Below, piece by piece: positions 5,293 to 31,378 of a DNA stretch of 44,225 nucleotides. Origin of the DNA: a virus (lineage: Duplodnaviria; Heunggongvirae; Uroviricota; Caudoviricetes); IMG/VR virus record IMGVR_UViG_2744054854_000007; one strand, 5' to 3'. Under the pieces are notes generated by a model that worked only from the letters and a program-made list of their open reading frames with translations, made no database searches and was not told where the DNA came from. The position numbers and the translations under genes were made by a program. Numbering within the stretch: position 1 is the first letter of the stretch; every line of letters starts with the position of its first letter.

Positions 5293-5873
5293 GTCACCTG
5301 ATCCTCTGTTTTTTGGCTGCGGATATTGTCATTGCCACTCTGGGCATTTTTAACCACATGATCATGGTCATTATGTGCATCCCGCAGCTCTTTCAGTGTT
5401 CGGGTATTGGTTTCACAGTTATCAACAATGTCACCCGTGCACCTCAGGATCGGGGTATTTGCAAGGATCCCCTGGCTGGCATTGATGGTCACGTTAGTGG
5501 CGTTATTGACCTCAACATTCTGGCCCTTTGCATCCAGGAAGATCCCCTTCTCCGTCAGGAGAATATTAAGGCCCCACTGGTTATACATGACCGTTTCGCC
5601 CGCTTTCAGGCCTGTATGACGGAACCCCTGATGGTTGGACGCAATTACCACCGCGCTGGAACGATCACCGCCAATAAAAGCCAGAACCACGTCAGTCCCT
5701 GACGGCAGGCCGGATGAAAAGCCAAATTCTGCCATCCGCGGAGCGCTGGCCACCTCCAGCGGAGTCTGGTACTGGATAGACTGCACCACCCCACCATCTT
5801 TCATAGCCGTGATCCGGCCAATCCCCAGCATGCCGGCGATCCTGGTCGCTGCATGTTTAAATAGTTGCTTCAT
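5289..5873 (-). CDS. Baseplate assembly/spike protein (Mu gp45-like, gpV family)
   Basis: 194 aa; ATGA overlap with neighbours; synteny. Confidence 0.65.
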   Translation of the reverse strand: MKQLFKHAATRIAGMLGIGRITAMKDGGVVQSIQYQTPLEVASAPRMAEFGFSSGLPSGTDVVLAFIGGDRSSAVVIASNHQGFRHTGLKAGETVMYNQWGLNILLTEKGIFLDAKGQNVEVNNATNVTINASQGILANTPILRCTGDIVDNCETNTRTLKELRDAHNDHDHVVKNAQSGNDNIRSQKTEDQVT

Positions 5874-19326: not shown

Positions 19327-21450
19327 TTATTTCGGCAGGAGTTGCGATATTCGCTTACGTTTGACCGGCGCTGGTTCTTCAATAACCGCACCCGGCAGCT
19401 CGTAATTGATTTTTTCTTCCTGTCCAACTGGCGCTGGCAGGAACTTATCCGGATCGGCTTCGAGGTTGGCGGCCCGGACGTTGAGTTTTAACCCCATATG
19501 TTTGAGACCGCACAGCGCGGCATAGCTGTAAACGAGGCAGTCAAGCGCTTCGTTAGCTCGTCCTGGTATTGCTTCCCAGATACTGTACCGCTGCCCGGAA
19601 ATGACTTTGTAAACCAGTCGCTCCGCCAGCAGCTGATTGAAGTACCCGAGATCGCGATCGTCAGGAAAATGCATATAACCCGCAGCGGCGGCGCCAGGTT
19701 TGGGTGGCTCAAGATGCAGGCGACCGCGTATCACGTCTTTCGCTGAGTTAACCCCCAGAATGACAGGGCGGAAACTGGCTTTGCTTTTCGATGATGGTCG
19801 TTTGGTCGGCCAGACAGGATTGCGTTTACCTCCCTGTGCAGACTCCCCCTTAATTGCCCAGACACGACGGCCAAGACGCTCTTTGGCGAATTCGTATACC
19901 TTCTGCGTATGGTGGCCACCGGAGTCCATGCACGTTGCCATGATATTCAGGCCGCGCCCGTCACCACGTCGCCAGATCTGTTTCAGGTATGCATCCAGTC
20001 GCTTCCAGGGTTCTTCCGTCTCAAGGTCACCATAAATAACGTCATGCGCGACCGACCACGATTCTTCATCTCTCCCCCAGCCGGTGATCGTAATTTCGAA
20101 GCGATCGTCCTGGGTATCAACTCCAGCTGTTAACAATGCCACCCCGTCCGGAACGACGGCCGGAAATATTTCCCGGCGCGCCAGCAGAACATCAACAGGG
20201 AGCTGTTTCCCATGATTAGGTCGGTGCGGAAGCCCCATCTGGGTATTCCACCACGCCTGTTCCTTATCCGGATCGCCCTTCGCATCGATATATTTTTTCG
20301 CAATATCCGACGGCTTATCTTTTTGCCAGGGGCTGAAAAGCTTGGATGCCTGGTACCCCGCGTGGTGGTTATCGACTGCCTCCTTTCCACAGGAGGGGCA
20401 GATTGCGCGATAGACCGCATGCCGTTCCGACTCTGACCATTGCCAGACCTTTTCAACGCTGCCCTCGTCTGCCGCCCGCCAGGCAAGGTCATAATCCATC
20501 AGCGGTGAGTGCCGCTCCCCGCAGCACTCAAATGGGCGCGTCTGATGCCATCGAATAGTTTGCAGAGCTCTGAGGCGCTGTCCTTCGGACCAGCCACTAC
20601 CACAGCATTCGCAATAGAGCATCGCCGATTTAGTCAGGTGTTTATCTCCCTCTTTCGGCCACTGAACGTGTTTGAAAAAGTCGGGGAACTGGCGGTGGCC
20701 ACAGTGCGGGCAAACCACAGATGCCCGGCGCTGATCGGAGTCGGCGTAGCTGTCAGCAATGCGGCTCTCATCCTCCACCGTCGGCGAACAGGCGCGTACA
20801 GACAGCCAGGTCAGGCCAAATGTCGCTGTACGCTCTTCGGCCAGCGCAATTGGATCGCCTTCGCGGGTTATCGGGTACTTGTCCACTTCATCCGCCAGCA
20901 GGACACGAATCGGACGACGCGCAAGGTTATCAGGGCTACCAGCACCCGCCAGCGCCAGAAATCCGCCAGTGAACGCCTTGTAAAGAATGGTTTCTTTCGA
21001 GCTTTTCTGTTTCGAATCACCGATGATTTTACGCAGTACCGGCGTCACCCTTACCAGCGGGCTAATACGCTCTTTCGAAAACTGTTCAGCGGCTTCTTCT
21101 TTCGGCTGCAGCAGCAGTATCGGACAAGGATCGAGGTGGGCAAAATAGCCAAAAAGGTTTTCCAGCAGTGCTGTCTTCATCAACTGGGTACAGCACATTA
21201 CAGTGATGATATGAACCCCGGACTCCGTCGCGGCAAGCATCGGTCCGCGGGCAATTTCTACCGTCGATGTTTCCCAGTTTCCCGAAGTGCTCCCAGCCTC
21301 TTTTGCCAGCTTACGATAGTCATCTGCCCACTGCGGCACACTGATACGCGGCGGGGGTGTCCAGCCTTTGCGGACGCTTAATTCAAGACGCTCAATCTTC
21401 TGCCGGGTTAAACTCTGGCTCTCCGAGGGCTGAGATGTGTTTGTGGACAT
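19327..21450 (-). CDS. Terminase large subunit (lambda gpA family)
   Basis: About 707 aa from ATG 21450 (track starts at TTG 21456); by-eye resemblance to lambda A through the central region (e.g. ...VCPHCGHRQF... vs ACPHCGEEQY); overlaps Nu1-like 3' end as lambda Nu1/A do. Confidence 0.85.
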   Translation of the reverse strand: MSTNTSQPSESQSLTRQKIERLELSVRKGWTPPPRISVPQWADDYRKLAKEAGSTSGNWETSTVEIARGPMLAATESGVHIITVMCCTQLMKTALLENLFGYFAHLDPCPILLLQPKEEAAEQFSKERISPLVRVTPVLRKIIGDSKQKSSKETILYKAFTGGFLALAGAGSPDNLARRPIRVLLADEVDKYPITREGDPIALAEERTATFGLTWLSVRACSPTVEDESRIADSYADSDQRRASVVCPHCGHRQFPDFFKHVQWPKEGDKHLTKSAMLYCECCGSGWSEGQRLRALQTIRWHQTRPFECCGERHSPLMDYDLAWRAADEGSVEKVWQWSESERHAVYRAICPSCGKEAVDNHHAGYQASKLFSPWQKDKPSDIAKKYIDAKGDPDKEQAWWNTQMGLPHRPNHGKQLPVDVLLARREIFPAVVPDGVALLTAGVDTQDDRFEITITGWGRDEESWSVAHDVIYGDLETEEPWKRLDAYLKQIWRRGDGRGLNIMATCMDSGGHHTQKVYEFAKERLGRRVWAIKGESAQGGKRNPVWPTKRPSSKSKASFRPVILGVNSAKDVIRGRLHLEPPKPGAAAAGYMHFPDDRDLGYFNQLLAERLVYKVISGQRYSIWEAIPGRANEALDCLVYSYAALCGLKHMGLKLNVRAANLEADPDKFLPAPVGQEEKINYELPGAVIEEPAPVKRKRISQLLPK

Positions 21451-21961
21451 GTTCAATCAGCACCTCTGTCATCCTGTCCGCCGGTACATCCAGATCAGCA
21501 GCCATTAGCGGCGCCACCCTGGACGGCCAGTTAAGCCAGGCATCACGCTGTTGGCGAAAGGCGTTGAATAAAACCTCCTCGGCTGCTGTCAGCTCAATAA
21601 GCTGGCCGCTGTCTTTTTCATACTGCAGCTTTGCCTGCAGGGCCATGTAATTCTCGCGGATACGTCCCGCTTCCTCTCTCGAAAGATCTGCCCCTTCAGT
21701 GAGCATTATCTGGCGGACAGTTTTATTGATTTCATCACCGTCATCATCGTTATCGCTAACGACGGGAGTTTTCTTTTTCTTCGCGTTCGAGGCGCGCGGG
21801 TCTTTGCCATCGCGGTTTTTCTTCAATGCCGCATCGCTGGCCTCTACGTCAATCAGGTCTCCGTCCATCACAATGAAGCGCCCGGCTTTAATCCACCGAC
21901 CAATTGTTTTGCGATCCACACCTGAATGTTGTGCGTACTGACTCTGGTTCATCGTGGTCAT
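21392..21961 (-). CDS. Terminase small subunit (Nu1-like, N-terminal winged HTH)
   Basis: 189 aa; N-terminal QYAQHSGVDRKTIGRWIKAG HTH resembles Nu1 N-terminus; position directly downstream of the cos-like repeat array. Confidence 0.65.
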   Translation of the reverse strand: MTTMNQSQYAQHSGVDRKTIGRWIKAGRFIVMDGDLIDVEASDAALKKNRDGKDPRASNAKKKKTPVVSDNDDDGDEINKTVRQIMLTEGADLSREEAGRIRENYMALQAKLQYEKDSGQLIELTAAEEVLFNAFRQQRDAWLNWPSRVAPLMAADLDVPADRMTEVLIEHVHKHISALGEPEFNPAED

Positions 21962-22108
21962 GGGACATCACCTGGGACATTTTCTGGGGTGGGACATTCG
22001 CCTGGGACATTTTTGCCATGTCCCACCAGAATGTCCCACTGGAATAAACTGGAATAGCCAGAGCTGGCGAGGTGTCCGTAATGATCGCCAGAGGTGGGAC
22101 ATGGGACA
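21961..22108. repeat. cosB-like array of TGGGACAT / ATGTCCCA octamers (candidate terminase small-subunit binding sites)
   Basis: Four direct copies at about 21961, 21973, 21990, 22003; two inverted at about 22018 and 22031; two more direct at about 22095 and 22102; abuts Nu1-like start. Confidence 0.6.
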
Positions 22109-22251
22109 CAAATCTGAAAGTTGTAGCTAGGAAAACACCGCGGCGCGCAATGCCCGTACCTTACAAAAGTCTCAGGAAGGACCCATTTTTTTATTGGCTT
22201 CGACCATTCGCTCCGACTATGATTATTCCTATTCAATACAAGGAGAATGTA

Positions 22252-22755
22252 ATGGGTAACAATATAATCAAAATAACTTTCGTAGCCGCAGTGCTGGCAT
22301 CACCAATTGCTCATGCCCAGTGGGTAACTAATACTGAAGATGACCTTTTCTCTGGTGGTAAGAAAGCAATGATGCTTGGCGAGGTTTCATCCGACAATGG
22401 CGCCATTGTGTTTGACTGCACTAAAGAAAAGCTATCGGCGGCATACGTTGAAATGGATAAAAGCACCGAATCACTATCAGAGGTACCAATGGACCTGATA
22501 ATGAAGGTCGACGGGAATACCGCAGTGAAGCTCGATGCTACCCTTTCAAGACGTAATGTTCAGAGCCTCCAGATTCAATCGGATGACGCGGACCAACTAA
22601 AAACAGTGCTTAAGCAGCTTCAGGGGGCGAAATCCAAAGTGTTAGTTGGTGTGCAAACAAAGGATGGCGGAAACCAGCATTCCATGTCAGCCAATGTTTC
22701 TGGATCGACAACTGCAGTAAACAGCTTCATAAAAGCTTGCGAAATTAACTTATAA
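22252..22755 (+). CDS. Secreted protein of unknown function (Sec signal peptide), candidate moron
   Basis: ATG 22252 with AAGGAG SD; MGNNIIKITFVAAVLASPIAHA/QW signal-like N-terminus; opposite strand to the flanking late genes. Confidence 0.6.
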   Translation: MGNNIIKITFVAAVLASPIAHAQWVTNTEDDLFSGGKKAMMLGEVSSDNGAIVFDCTKEKLSAAYVEMDKSTESLSEVPMDLIMKVDGNTAVKLDATLSRRNVQSLQIQSDDADQLKTVLKQLQGAKSKVLVGVQTKDGGNQHSMSANVSGSTTAVNSFIKACEINL

Positions 22756-22765
22756 GTTACTGCTT

Positions 22766-23404
22766 TTATTTTGCCGTCCTGATGGCTTCTGCTATCGCCT
22801 GATTTAAAGCAGACGGTAGCAGTGCGTTCGCCATGGTACGGGCCCTATCCATATACCCCAGCACTGGAGTCACAGGTAGCGCATCACCAAACCGGATCAA
22901 AAGCTTTGGAGAACGCTGTTTGCGTTTCGGTCTTCGCGTCCCGTTAGCGGAACGTTTGGCCCGTCGCTTCTTAGCTTTCATCGGCTTCTTACGCTGCCAG
23001 ACAGCGTTAACGCCATCAACCTCACCTACGAATACATTTTCCTTTGCTTTAAGCTGTGAGAGCTTATTACGCGGCATGTTGCCGTATTTGTTTAGCTTGA
23101 CGTTCTTGGGGTTCAATAGCGCTTGGCTATTGAGCTTATGCTCTCCACCTAACTCGAATGGTTCCAGATAACCAGCCGCGGTATCGCGGACAAAAACCTT
23201 TGCAGTCAGGTTGTTCTTCCTTGCCGCCACCGAACCAACTGATTTAACGGTAAACGGTGTCGGGCTCTCCAGATGTCGTTCGAACGCTGTTTTCTGTGCC
23301 GTTTCTATTTGACGAACAACTTTTGTCATAGCTAGTGCTGTAGCATATGGCACCTGCTTTTGTACCTTCTTTAATTGCTGAGAAAGGTCTTTGAGTGTTG
23401 CCAT
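22766..23404 (-). CDS. Hypothetical protein with highly basic Lys/Arg-rich segment
   Basis: Internal ATG 23404 (MATLKDLSQQLKK); 212 aa; ...KKPMKAKKRRAKRSANGTRRPKRKQRSPK... tract. Confidence 0.5.
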   Translation of the reverse strand: MATLKDLSQQLKKVQKQVPYATALAMTKVVRQIETAQKTAFERHLESPTPFTVKSVGSVAARKNNLTAKVFVRDTAAGYLEPFELGGEHKLNSQALLNPKNVKLNKYGNMPRNKLSQLKAKENVFVGEVDGVNAVWQRKKPMKAKKRRAKRSANGTRRPKRKQRSPKLLIRFGDALPVTPVLGYMDRARTMANALLPSALNQAIAEAIRTAK

Positions 23405-26084: not shown

Positions 26085-26984
26085 TTAGCGAATATTCCAC
26101 ATCATCGTGCTGCCATTATGATTTTCAATAATTTTCGCAGCAGGACTCGTACCAAATGAATGCATGTAGCAATGATGTATAGTCAGCACAAGATCCTGCA
26201 GAGTTTGGTCGCTCTCCAGCTCCATAATGTTCAAACCAATGCTTTGCGCTTTATCCAGATGAATATGTCTAGCATGCGCATAGGTTGTATGATGATTGTT
26301 TAGCTCATCACAAATTCGCTTAGCCTTATCTTGAGCGTTAGCATGACCTGCAAACATACCAGTACACAGCCATTTTTGTACTATTTCATTAGCCCAAACA
26401 ATAGCCTTTTCACATTCACCAATGAGAGTCGGGTTTAGCTTTTGAAGAGTAAATTGCCACCATTGGATCGCTGCAGCATTTTCAGAAATCTCTTTCTTAG
26501 CTCGCTCATACTCTTCTATGATCGCATGAGATGATAAACCACCAAGCTGCGGATCAATTGGCCCCAAATTTGACTGTTTGCCCAATACAATCTGTTCGGC
26601 ACAGCAAGCCAACATGGTCCCACAACTCATTGAGATCATAGGAACAATTGCCCGGATATTGGTCCCAAATTTTGAACGAAGATAATGACCAATAGATTCC
26701 AATGCTGCAATATCTCCCCCTGGGGTATGAAGCAAGATATCCAGCCCTAATGACGTGTCTAAGCCGTTAATGGCTGACATAAGACCATTTTTATCGTCAT
26801 CTGACATTTGTATTAAATGCTGCAACCCAGGCCCCCCCTTCTGGAGGAAGCCTGAGTAATATGAAATTACGTTTCGGCCTGTATGCTTCGACAACTCTCG
26901 TAAGTACTTGTGGCGAACCTCATCCGCTGGTGTACGTTGAGCAATAGTACCCATCTCGCCCAACACGTCTATCCAATTTGGCAT
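26085..26984 (-). CDS. ClpP/S49-fold serine peptidase-like cargo protein (second, non-morphogenetic)
   Basis: 299 aa; ...LDILLHTPGGDIAA... motif of S49/SDH-type peptidases (memory); visibly AT-richer than backbone; 12 nt downstream of a co-directional small ORF. Confidence 0.55.
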   Translation of the reverse strand: MPNWIDVLGEMGTIAQRTPADEVRHKYLRELSKHTGRNVISYYSGFLQKGGPGLQHLIQMSDDDKNGLMSAINGLDTSLGLDILLHTPGGDIAALESIGHYLRSKFGTNIRAIVPMISMSCGTMLACCAEQIVLGKQSNLGPIDPQLGGLSSHAIIEEYERAKKEISENAAAIQWWQFTLQKLNPTLIGECEKAIVWANEIVQKWLCTGMFAGHANAQDKAKRICDELNNHHTTYAHARHIHLDKAQSIGLNIMELESDQTLQDLVLTIHHCYMHSFGTSPAAKIIENHNGSTMMWNIR

Positions 26985-29936: not shown

Positions 29937-30188
29937 TTAATATTTGTAGCGGTTTTCAGGAAGAAATGCGTATTCGTAAGTGAAGTTGAACGCCTCACTT
30001 TCAGTGTTAAATCGGCGCTCGGTGATATCACTCCAGTGTCCCCTGAAATACTTCTGAGCCCCCCACTTTCCCTCGAATGGGAATACAGCATACGCACCGA
30101 CATACCGGTTATCAGCATGCGGATCTGGATATGACTCGCGTTCTGCCAGAACGTAAAACTTGATGCCGCTTACAATGAGGCAGCCCAT
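29937..30188 (-). CDS. Hypothetical protein
   Basis: ATG 30188 overlapping upstream stop (TGATG). Confidence 0.4.
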   Translation of the reverse strand: MGCLIVSGIKFYVLAERESYPDPHADNRYVGAYAVFPFEGKWGAQKYFRGHWSDITERRFNTESEAFNFTYEYAFLPENRYKY

Positions 30189-30445
30189 CACTTCTTCTCG
30201 TTCTGCGCGGCCATATCCAGGTATCGCGGGTCGGATGATTTCGGTAGAGTCAGGCTTTGCTCTCGGTAGTAACGAACTCGCTCCATGAAGTATTCACGCA
30301 GATGATCTGGCTGCTCACGAGCTACCTGCTCAGCGATAACCGGCATGTTCAGGCGCTCTTTGTACGCTACGCCACTGGCAGCCAGGTCCACGTTAGCCTT
30401 GTCCTGCTCTTCTTTCGATTTTTCTGCGATATTAAAATGTGACAT
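30188..30445 (-). CDS. Hypothetical protein
   Basis: 85 aa; translationally coupled to neighbours. Confidence 0.4.
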
Positions 30446-31286: not shown

Positions 31287-31378
31287 GGAGGGTTGGCCGA
31301 GTGGTTGATGGCACCTCACTGATAATGAGGCGTACGGGCTATAAACCCGTACCGCGGGTTCGAACCCCGCACCCTATT
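31287..31378 (+). tRNA. tRNA-like gene, class-II architecture, Ile-type anticodon loop CUGAUAA (GAU); possibly degenerate
   Basis: Hand-folded: D-arm GCC-GAGTGGTTGAT-GGC; anticodon arm CCTCA-CTGATAA-TGAGG; 23-nt variable hairpin; T-arm GCGGG-TTCGAAC-CCCGC; acceptor has one G:A mismatch and no encoded CCA; followed by a terminator. Confidence 0.4.

What the first reader, a model, noticed from the sequence alone, without database searches (positions are those of the whole stretch)
22252..22755. Secreted 167-aa protein encoded on the opposite strand just beyond the cos region
Seen in sequence: strong SD, classical Sec signal (MGNNIIKITFVAAVLASPIAHA then QW), and orientation opposite to both flanking late operons (converges on 22766-23404). 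Its location at the packaging end of the genome and its anti-sense orientation suggest an accessory gene rather than a structural one. Function unknown.
Basis: seen in the sequence. Interest (0 to 1): 0.4.

Follow-up and report, generated by a model that had tools for sequence, protein, structure and literature searches.

The report
Prophage add-on gene for periplasmic protein
A small optional gene cassette wedged next to the DNA-packaging site of an E. coli prophage encodes an exported protein of unknown function. It is an ordinary kind of phage "moron", but the protein family has no name in any of the family libraries searched and several different phages have captured it.

Summary
Window 22252-22755 (+) is a real 167-aa gene with an AAGGAG Shine-Dalgarno 6 nt upstream. 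It has a conserved Sec-type signal peptide (AHA|QW) and lies antisense to all neighbouring late genes.

The window is an E. coli lambdoid-type prophage with a Mu-like tail. The gene sits in a 580-bp, low-GC cassette (22186-22765). That cassette is precisely absent from about a third of E. coli prophages whose small-terminase/cos segment is at least 99% identical. This is the classic anatomy of a moron.

Homologues (dN/dS about 0.06-0.09) occupy other accessory slots:
- the last gene after mom in Mu-like prophages;
- beside the tape-measure gene;
- after tail-fibre genes;
- a few non-phage chromosomal sites.

Best reading: a prophage accessory gene for a soluble, probably disulfide-stabilised periplasmic protein that binds an envelope component. 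Blocking entry of other phages is my favoured but untested role. It is a new member of a known kind and of modest interest.

The parts
22252..22755 (+). Coding sequence, 167 aa plus stop (= RefSeq WP_001472855.1, 'hypothetical protein')
   Evidence: PHROG 19473 matches full length. dN/dS 0.06-0.09 against homologues.
22252..22317 (+). Sec-type signal peptide, residues 1-22, with predicted cleavage AHA|QW
   Evidence: Sequence rules: n-region K7, hydrophobic core, A-x-A motif. It is the only hydrophobic stretch. The layout is conserved in alignment A1 and seen in sampled members of the wider set. pLDDT is below 50 for residues 1-20. There is no Cys lipobox and no twin-arginine motif.
22318..22752 (+). 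Mature 145-aa domain (15.5 kDa, pI 4.9): nine strands and two helices, IalB/MotY-N-like fold, with conserved C56 and C163
22240..22245 (+). Shine-Dalgarno AAGGAG, 6 nt before the ATG
   Evidence: Read directly from the sequence.
22194..22223 (+). Candidate sigma-70 promoter inside the cassette (TTGGCT, 18 nt, TATGAT)
   Evidence: One site was found against 2.2 expected, so it is not above chance. The TATGAT is kept in sibling alleles, but the -35 is not. The same scan found no + strand promoter-like site in four other alleles. Weak evidence.
22186..22765 (+). The moron cassette: the segment present here and replaced by about 25 bp (with a hairpin) in prophages lacking the gene
   Evidence: Alignment of the window with NCTC9040, HS and MIN9. 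Cassette GC is 43%, against 51% for the window and 55% for TerL. The cassette is in 22 (+1 divergent) of 5426 E. coli genomes, while the TerS/cos segment is in 63.
21961..22109 (.). Cluster of TGGGACAT repeats (7 exact, 1 near, both orientations) between the TerS start and the cassette; probable TerS binding sites of the cos region
   Evidence: Every exact copy in the 44-kb window lies here. The repeats are also present in prophages without the ORF. The function is inferred.
22142..22185 (.). Conserved block forming the left border of the cassette slot
   Evidence: The invariant core GGCGCGCAATGCC...GGAAGGACCCA is kept in loci with different terminases and in loci without the ORF. Its role is unexplained.
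22766..23404 (-). Convergent neighbour (212 aa, PHROG 1924 'minor tail protein'), last gene of the late-strand block before cos; not part of the cassette
   Evidence: It is present with or without the ORF.
21392..21961 (-). Small terminase subunit (context)
   Evidence: PHROG 57, E 3.8e-36.

Best explanation
**What it is.** The gene is a moron: a self-contained accessory cassette of 580 bp with low GC. It lies in the gap between the cos/terminase end and the last gene of the lysis-side late block of a lambdoid-type E. coli prophage, antisense to late transcription.

**The product.** The protein is exported by Sec and its 22-residue signal peptide is cleaved. The 145-aa mature protein folds in the periplasm into an IalB/MotY-N-like beta-rich domain. 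A C56-C163 disulfide probably stabilises it.

**Inferred steps.**
- It is transcribed on its own in the lysogen. The late transcript is antisense to it, so late transcription cannot express it.
- It acts by docking onto an envelope component, not by catalysis.

**Favoured role.** My favoured specific role is protection of the lysogen against entry of other phages, or of other agents that cross the envelope. I put this at roughly 0.3-0.35. General envelope fitness is nearly as likely.

**Origin.** The phage copies probably derive from a chromosomal periplasmic protein family, as HK97 gp15 derives from YebO.
For: **Shown here**
- Real gene under purifying selection, with a strong Shine-Dalgarno and a conserved signal peptide and two conserved Cys.
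- Clean presence/absence among near-identical prophages.
- GC of 43% against 51-55% for the surroundings.
- Intrinsic terminators directly after the stop in sibling alleles.
- The same gene sits in at least five other accessory slots:
  - the last gene, 183 bp from the right end of Mu-like prophages, after com/mom;
  - between TerS and the spanin/endolysin genes of a phage with an unrelated terminase;
  - between the tape-measure and DNA-circularisation genes;
  - directly upstream of a tape-measure gene, beside a Doc-toxin moron, which is the HK97 gp15 slot;
  - after a tail-fibre assembly gene.
- Stand-alone chromosomal members exist.
- The antisense position relative to a Q-dependent late block follows from the annotation.

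**From the literature**
- Morons are defined by exactly these features, and several encode envelope proteins that exclude phages (PMC3594210).
- MotY-N and the IalB-domain protein RgsG are periplasmic proteins of envelope machines. For MotY-N, docking onto its partners is shown.
Against: - No expression data exist.
- The promoter-like site is no better than chance, and the scan found none in four other alleles.
- The window's own allele has no terminator hairpin.
- There is no match to any PADLOC defence model or to any named family.
- No homologue occurs in 50,697 deposited phage genomes.
- The molecular function of IalB itself is unknown, so the fold does not specify a mechanism.
- Chromosomal housekeeping-like homologues suggest a general envelope role rather than anti-phage activity.
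- Known exclusion proteins are mostly membrane proteins or lipoproteins, not soluble periplasmic ones.
Confidence: 0.55

Rival explanations
1. It is a lysogenic-conversion factor for host fitness or virulence, not for phage exclusion. In this reading the periplasmic protein alters envelope properties such as stress tolerance, serum resistance or adhesion/invasion. The models are lambda Bor and Lom, or Bartonella IalB.
For: It shares the moron anatomy of the best explanation. Its position and antisense orientation match lambda bor, between the lysis genes and cos (own knowledge). Its best structural match is IalB, an invasion-associated protein. Stand-alone chromosomal homologues suggest a cell-physiology role. 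Bor and Lom are recognised morons of this type.
Against: Carriers come from river water, seawater, frogs, poultry and hospital isolates, and include Kluyvera, Citrobacter, Edaphovirga, Serratia plymuthica and Pantoea from onion. There is no link to a pathotype or an animal host. The protein is not a lipoprotein or an outer-membrane protein, unlike Bor and Lom. How IalB works is unknown.
Confidence: 0.25
2. It serves the phage's own lytic cycle. Examples would be a periplasmic modulator of lysis timing or peptidoglycan degradation, or an early-expressed protein from the first-injected genome end that conditions the envelope after infection.
For: In several phage types it lies next to the lysis cassette and at the extreme end of the packaged genome: the cos end here, and 183 bp from the Mu right end. 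In some phages it is co-oriented with tail genes and could ride the late transcript. T4-like lytic phages (KP15, RB16, VH7D) encode proteins with a similar predicted fold, TM about 0.5.
Confidence: 0.12
3. It is a conserved part of the packaging or structural module, or else a spurious ORF.
For: It lies close to TerS and cos. The neighbouring gene carries a PHROG 'minor tail protein' label.
Against: It is absent from relatives with the same TerS, cos repeats and neighbour. It has a signal peptide. It occurs in unrelated genome slots. Purifying selection excludes a chance ORF.
Confidence: 0.03

Closest known systems
Phage morons encoding envelope proteins: lambda Bor, HK97 gp15, phi80/N15 Cor
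   Same: - An optional cassette absent from close relatives, with deviant GC and a terminator in sibling alleles.
- An envelope-targeted product.
- Lambda bor occupies the same slot (between the lysis genes and cos) in the same antisense orientation (own knowledge).
- Some homologues sit in the HK97 gp15 slot, upstream of the tape-measure gene.
- A likely bacterial origin, as with gp15 and YebO.
   Different: - No sequence or fold relation to any of them.
- Bor and Cor are lipoproteins and gp15 is an inner-membrane protein. This one is predicted to be a soluble periplasmic protein with no lipobox or membrane anchor.
- Expression from the prophage and any phenotype are untested.
IalB, invasion-associated locus B (Pfam PF06776; PDB 3dtd, Bartonella henselae)
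   Same: - Similar size (3dtd chain of 142 residues).
- A subset of the family (RgsG) is periplasmic.
- One member of the present family gives a sub-threshold PF06776 hit in the matching half of the domain.
   Different: - 13% identity.
- The window protein and 118 relatives do not reach the Pfam model.
- Profile searches of PDB sequences do not find 3dtd.
- In the papers read, IalB homologues are described from Bartonella and other Hyphomicrobiales/Rhizobiales, and IalB is reported at the inner membrane.
- Its mechanism is unknown, so the likeness gives a location, not a function.
MotY N-terminal domain (Vibrio T ring; PDB 8z5n chain A, identity as MotY inferred from chain length)
   Different: 10% identity. 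MotY carries an extra OmpA-like C-terminal domain (own knowledge). Nothing links the prophage protein to flagella.
PHROG 19473
   Same: The protein is a full-length member: E 1.6e-99, positions 1-167 of 167.
   Different: The PHROG carries no function, so membership adds only that the family was already seen in (pro)phage genomes.

Membership tests
Moron (Juhala et al. 2000; definition as quoted in PMC3594210) | Extra DNA present in one phage but absent from otherwise closely related phages | tested here: met
   A 580-bp cassette (22186-22765) is replaced by about 25 bp in NCTC9040 and HS prophages that have the same flanks. It is in 22 of 34 E. coli genomes with a TerS/cos segment at least 99% identical.
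Moron | Base composition differs from the surrounding genes | tested here: met
   Cassette GC is 43.4% and ORF GC3 is 44.6%. TerL is 55.4% (GC3 58%) and the window is 51%.
Moron | Own promoter and own terminator (an independent transcription unit) | tested here: inconclusive
   There is one sigma-70-like site at 22194-22223, but it is not above chance, and the scan found no + strand site in four other alleles. Terminator hairpins follow the stop in sibling alleles but not in this window.
Moron | Expressed from the repressed prophage | not testable with these tools
   This needs RNA-seq or 5'-RACE of a lysogen. It is only inferred, from the antisense orientation to the late genes.
Sec-exported protein with a cleavable (SPase I) signal peptide | Basic n-region, hydrophobic core of 7-15 residues, small residues at -3 and -1, no Cys lipobox, no RR motif | tested here: met
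   The layout is MGNNIIK / ITFVAAVLASPI / AHA|QW. It is the only hydrophobic segment and the layout is conserved. Residues 1-20 are unstructured in the model. This is a rule-based call; SignalP was not available.
IalB family (Pfam PF06776) | Score at or above the Pfam gathering threshold (22.1 bits) | tested here: not met
   The window protein gives no hit. None of 118 relatives hit at E up to 0.1. One multi-domain relative, P0066, scores 18.7 bits, E 0.002.
IalB family (Pfam PF06776) | IalB-like three-dimensional fold | tested here: met
   [not shown]
Phage lipoprotein exclusion or conversion factors (Bor, Cor, Llp type) | Lipobox with Cys at +1 of the mature protein | tested here: not met
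   There is no Cys before residue 56, and the cleavage motif is AHA|Q.
Known anti-phage defence proteins (PADLOC-DB 2.0) | Significant match to a PADLOC model | tested here: not met
   The only hit is a chance-level one, E 0.007 (13.4 bits), to a Type I specificity subunit.
Packaging or structural module of this phage type | Conserved in all relatives that share the module | tested here: not met
   The gene is absent from relatives with an identical TerS protein, WP_000210383.1.

The most novel reading that the evidence does not exclude
The protein may found a new class of soluble periplasmic 'gatekeeper' proteins with an IalB/MotY-N fold. Temperate phages of Enterobacterales would have captured it repeatedly from a chromosomal envelope-protein family and parked it at the last-packaged (first-injected) genome end or in tail-gene moron slots. 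It would block genome entry of competing phages by docking onto an envelope machine or onto the incoming tail. This would also give the first molecular handle on what the IalB fold does.
Probability: 0.2. Interest if true: 0.6.

Novelty: new member of a known kind. Interest (0 to 1): 0.3.

Why it matters
Morons are a main route by which prophages change their hosts, and most remain uncharacterised.

- **Family size and annotation.** This one belongs to a family of about 270 sequence clusters (at 50% identity). None of 118 members tested matches a Pfam model, and none of the members looked up carries an informative name.
- **Repeated capture.** The gene has been captured in at least five different phage genome slots, which argues for a selectable function.
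- **Structure.** The predicted structure is confident, so the family is easy to test.
- **Possible pay-off.** A phenotype such as phage exclusion, colicin tolerance or envelope fitness would annotate hundreds of 'hypothetical' proteins. It might also illuminate the long-unexplained IalB fold.

If no phenotype appears, it is simply one more hypothetical prophage cargo gene.

Tried and rejected
**Searches that found nothing useful**
- Megablast and tblastn against 50,697 deposited phage genomes gave no match. The gene is known only from prophages and metagenomes.
- Pfam, NCBIfam and PADLOC gave only chance-level hits.
- PDB sequence searches with two profiles and with P0066 gave only spurious hits to de novo designed proteins and the like.
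- Rfam on 21800-23000 gave nothing.
- A literature search for the accession, the PHROG and 'IalB-like' found nothing relevant.

- The AFDB50 library was not available.
- The search for related loci with the broad alignments A3 and A4 failed, because no stretch was conserved enough.
- The second homologue search, with A3, added only 3 new proteins.
- The listing of cluster members gave almost no names.

**Ideas considered and dropped**
- Lipoprotein: there is no lipobox.
- The longer ORF starting at GTG 22072 or ATG 22219: neither has a Shine-Dalgarno, and homologues do not conserve the extension.
- A chance ORF: excluded by dN/dS.
- Promoter conservation was looked for and not convincingly found.

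Full report
**1. The observation**

Window 22252-22755 (+) is an open reading frame of 167 codons ending in TAA. AAGGAG lies at 22240-22245, 6 nt before the ATG.

The product begins MGNNIIKITFVAAVLASPIAHA|QW. This gives a basic n-region, a 12-residue hydrophobic core and an A-x-A cleavage motif. The core is the only hydrophobic segment in the protein. There is no cysteine before residue 56, so it is not a lipoprotein, and there is no twin-arginine motif.

A longer reading from GTG 22072 or ATG 22219 is possible on paper. It lacks a ribosome-binding site, and homologues in other genomic contexts begin at the position of 22252.

All neighbouring genes are on the other strand: TerL 19327-21456, TerS 21392-21961 and the 212-aa gene 22766-23404. 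The stop codons of the ORF and of 22766-23404 are 10 nt apart.

The gene is not a chance ORF:
- It is annotated in RefSeq as WP_001472855.1.
- It matches PHROG 19473 over all 167 positions, E 1.6e-99.
- Against homologues, dN/dS is 0.06-0.09 with saturated synonymous sites.

**2. Where the window comes from**

The segment is 100% identical to a chromosomal prophage of E. coli 2018-10-1CC and several other isolates. The annotation of that locus shows:
- a lambdoid regulatory region (LexA-family repressor, Q antiterminator, RusA, RecE/RecT, integrase);
- a lysis cassette (two holins, a GH19 endolysin, spanin-like ORFs);
- lambda-type head genes (GpA terminase, gpW, portal, S49 protease, decoration and major capsid proteins);
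- a Mu-like contractile tail.

Everything from Q through lysis, cos, head and tail runs on the - strand. The ORF is therefore antisense to what is most likely a single lambda-style late transcription unit, not wedged between two operons. This is an inference from gene order.

Between the TerS start and the ORF lie seven exact copies of TGGGACAT, at 21961-22102. They are the only exact copies in the 44 kb.

**3. Presence and absence**

A search of 5,426 complete E. coli genomes found relatives of the TerS/cos segment in 63 genomes, 34 of them at 99% identity or more. The cassette is in only 22 of these, plus one divergent allele in strain MIN9.

I aligned the window with prophages of NCTC9040 and HS. 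NCTC9040 encodes the identical TerS protein, WP_000210383.1. Both carry the TGGGACAT repeats and a homologue of the 22766 gene, though in HS that gene is an annotated partial pseudogene. The alignment shows a clean indel:
- The sequences agree up to ...CTCAGGAAGGACCCA (window 22185).
- They agree again from the stop codon of the 22766 gene.
- In between, the window has 580 bp (22186-22765), and the others have about 25 bp containing a short hairpin.

The cassette has 43% GC. The window has 51% and the terminase genes have 53-55%.

Sibling alleles carry a hairpin-plus-T-run terminator between the ORF stop and the convergent gene. Examples are GGGGAAgtaaTTCCCC in L043 and strong terminators in L063 and L065. 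The window's own allele has lost it.

A sigma-70-like site (TTGGCT, 18 nt, TATGAT; 22194-22223) lies inside the cassette. It is no better than chance. Only its -10 element is kept in sibling alleles. The scan found no + strand promoter-like site in four other alleles.

By the published definition of a moron (extra DNA, deviant GC, own promoter and terminator, prophage expression; PMC3594210), two criteria are met, one is inconclusive and one cannot be tested here.

**4. The gene travels**

In IMG/VR, 59 viral contigs encode a relative. Most have it in the same slot, TerS <- cos -> ORF <- p22766. Other homologues occupy other classic accessory positions:
- **(a) Mu-like prophages.** A 63%-identical E. 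coli allele, listed in 215 blocks of the contig collection, is the last gene after com/mom. It lies 183 bp from a Mu-type right end (...GTTTTTCGTGCGCCGCCTCA), beyond which five loci diverge into different host genes.
- **(b) A phage with an unrelated terminase.** The gene lies between TerS and the spanin/endolysin genes, followed only by a remnant of the p22766 3' end.
- **(c) A Dryocola prophage.** It lies between the tape-measure and DNA-circularisation genes, co-oriented with them.
- **(d) L066 and L067.** It lies just upstream of the tape-measure gene: directly in L066, with one small ORF between in L067. Doc-toxin and membrane-protein morons sit alongside. This is the slot of the founding moron, HK97 gene 15.
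- **(e) Edaphovirga.** It follows a tail-fibre assembly gene.

L041 has TerL and TerS 99-100% identical to the window's, yet its ORF is only 81% identical, with dS of about 1.5. The right side of cos, comprising the ORF and p22766, is therefore exchanged as a mosaic module.

Identical or 99% identical copies occur in Kluyvera sichuanensis and Citrobacter youngae. Only 4 of 185,579 species-representative genomes carry a close relative. Only two plasmids do, both Pantoea megaplasmids. No deposited phage genome has it.

**5. The wider family**

A profile search of 1.84 billion representative proteins found 269 clusters at E up to 1e-3, and 127 at E up to 1e-10.
- Most are about 165 aa. Diverse members sampled show the same layout: a signal peptide, an invariant Trp two residues after the cleavage site, an invariant Cys (C56), a second Cys (C163, in at least 90%) and a C-terminal GST-x-A-x3-F-x2-A-C motif.
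- A few proteins carry the domain in tandem or fused to other regions.
- None of 118 members matches a Pfam family, and almost none has a name.
- Some members are chromosomal, have no phage genes nearby and share no common neighbour. These are Leminorella, Ewingella, a gene between recA and alaS and a gene next to dxs.

The phage copies therefore look like captures from a bacterial periplasmic protein family, as described for HK97 gp15 and YebO.

**6. Structure**

AlphaFold2 with the 26-sequence alignment gave mean pLDDT 86.2 and pTM 0.79. Only residues 1-20 scored below 50. The mature part has nine strands and two helices.

The next hit aligns only 63 residues. Foldseek against the PDB found nothing credible. 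Foldseek against viral models found uncharacterised proteins of T4-like phages KP15, RB16 and VH7D at TM of about 0.5. One relative (P0066) gives a sub-threshold Pfam IalB hit (18.7 bits, cut-off 22.1) in the corresponding C-terminal half of the domain.

I therefore call the fold IalB/MotY-N-like but do not file the protein in Pfam IalB.

The literature gives no molecular function for IalB. The IalB-domain protein RgsG is periplasmic and sits at the growth pole of Sinorhizobium together with Tol-Pal partners. MotY-N works by docking between FlgI, FlgT and MotX. The fold thus points to a periplasmic location, and, going by MotY-N, to docking rather than catalysis. It does not say what is bound.

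**7. How it most likely works**

Shown:
- It is an optional cassette.
- It is a real, constrained gene.
- It has a signal peptide, no membrane anchor and no lipobox.
- It has a confident periplasmic-type fold.

Inferred:
- It is exported by Sec and cleaved after A22.
- A C56-C163 disulfide forms.
- It is transcribed independently in the lysogen, because late transcription is antisense here.
- It acts by binding an envelope component.

Among specific roles I favour protection against entry of other phages, at about 0.3-0.35. This is the most frequent documented job of envelope-directed morons. The gene also sits in slots used by known exclusion genes. General envelope fitness or virulence in the Bor, Lom or IalB style is close behind, at about 0.25. 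The broad environmental and plant-associated distribution argues against a mammal-specific role. A role in the phage's own lytic cycle gets about 0.12. A structural or packaging role is excluded by the presence/absence data.

**8. Comparison with the known, and verdict**

By position and orientation the closest analogue is lambda bor, which lies between the lysis genes and cos, is antisense and is expressed in the lysogen (own knowledge). By fold the closest are IalB and MotY-N. By family it is PHROG 19473, of unknown function.

It is a new member of a known kind: a prophage moron for an envelope protein. It is not a new kind of system.

Interest is modest, at 0.3. The finding is ordinary in category, but the family is sizeable, has no name in the libraries searched, has been captured repeatedly by phages and is easy to test.

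Noticed in passing
window 21961-22109: There are seven exact TGGGACAT copies plus one near copy: four direct, two inverted and a tandem pair. They are the only exact copies in the 44-kb window, and they lie between the TerS start codon and the cassette. They are probably small-terminase binding sites (cosB-like). Prophages that lack the ORF keep them.
   Followed up: partly
window 22142-22185: The block GGCGCGCAATGCC...GGAAGGACCCA forms the left border of the moron slot. Its core is invariant even in loci with unrelated or very divergent terminases (L049, L053, L046) and in loci without the ORF. There is no Rfam match, and the RNA fold is not significant (z -1.6). It could be cosN or a recombination joint; this is unresolved.
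   Followed up: partly
window 22756-22765, compared with L043 5520-5535 and L004: The window's allele has lost the bidirectional hairpin terminator that separates the ORF from the convergent 22766 gene in most sibling alleles. Only 10 nt remain between the two stop codons.
   Followed up: partly
L005 6505-6570 and L048-L052 about 5529-5640: Copies of the gene in other phage types are followed by a short remnant resembling the 3' end of the 22766-type gene. In L048-L052 this is a tblastn fragment of about 30 aa. In the Mu-like locus it is the motif ctgctatcgc. This suggests the cassette moved together with a piece of its neighbour.
   Followed up: no
window 22766-23404 (-): This 212-aa gene is labelled 'minor tail protein' by PHROG 1924, yet it sits between the lysis cassette and cos, far from the tail genes. 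It has no Pfam or NCBIfam match. The label looks doubtful.
   Followed up: no
window 31287-31378 (+): An unusually long (92-nt) tRNA-Ile (anticodon GAT) lies inside the prophage early region, on the strand opposite to the surrounding genes.
   Followed up: no
window 26085-26984 (-) and about 30188-30445 (-): According to the RefSeq annotation of the identical locus, the prophage carries other cargo: an SDH-family Clp-fold serine proteinase just upstream of the holins, a DNA polymerase III theta homologue, and a frameshifted SAM-dependent methyltransferase.
   Followed up: no
L041 compared with the window: The two prophages have TerL and TerS 99-100% identical. Their ORFs and 22766-type genes are both only 81% identical, and for the ORF synonymous sites are saturated. 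There is a sharp mosaic boundary at cos.
   Followed up: partly
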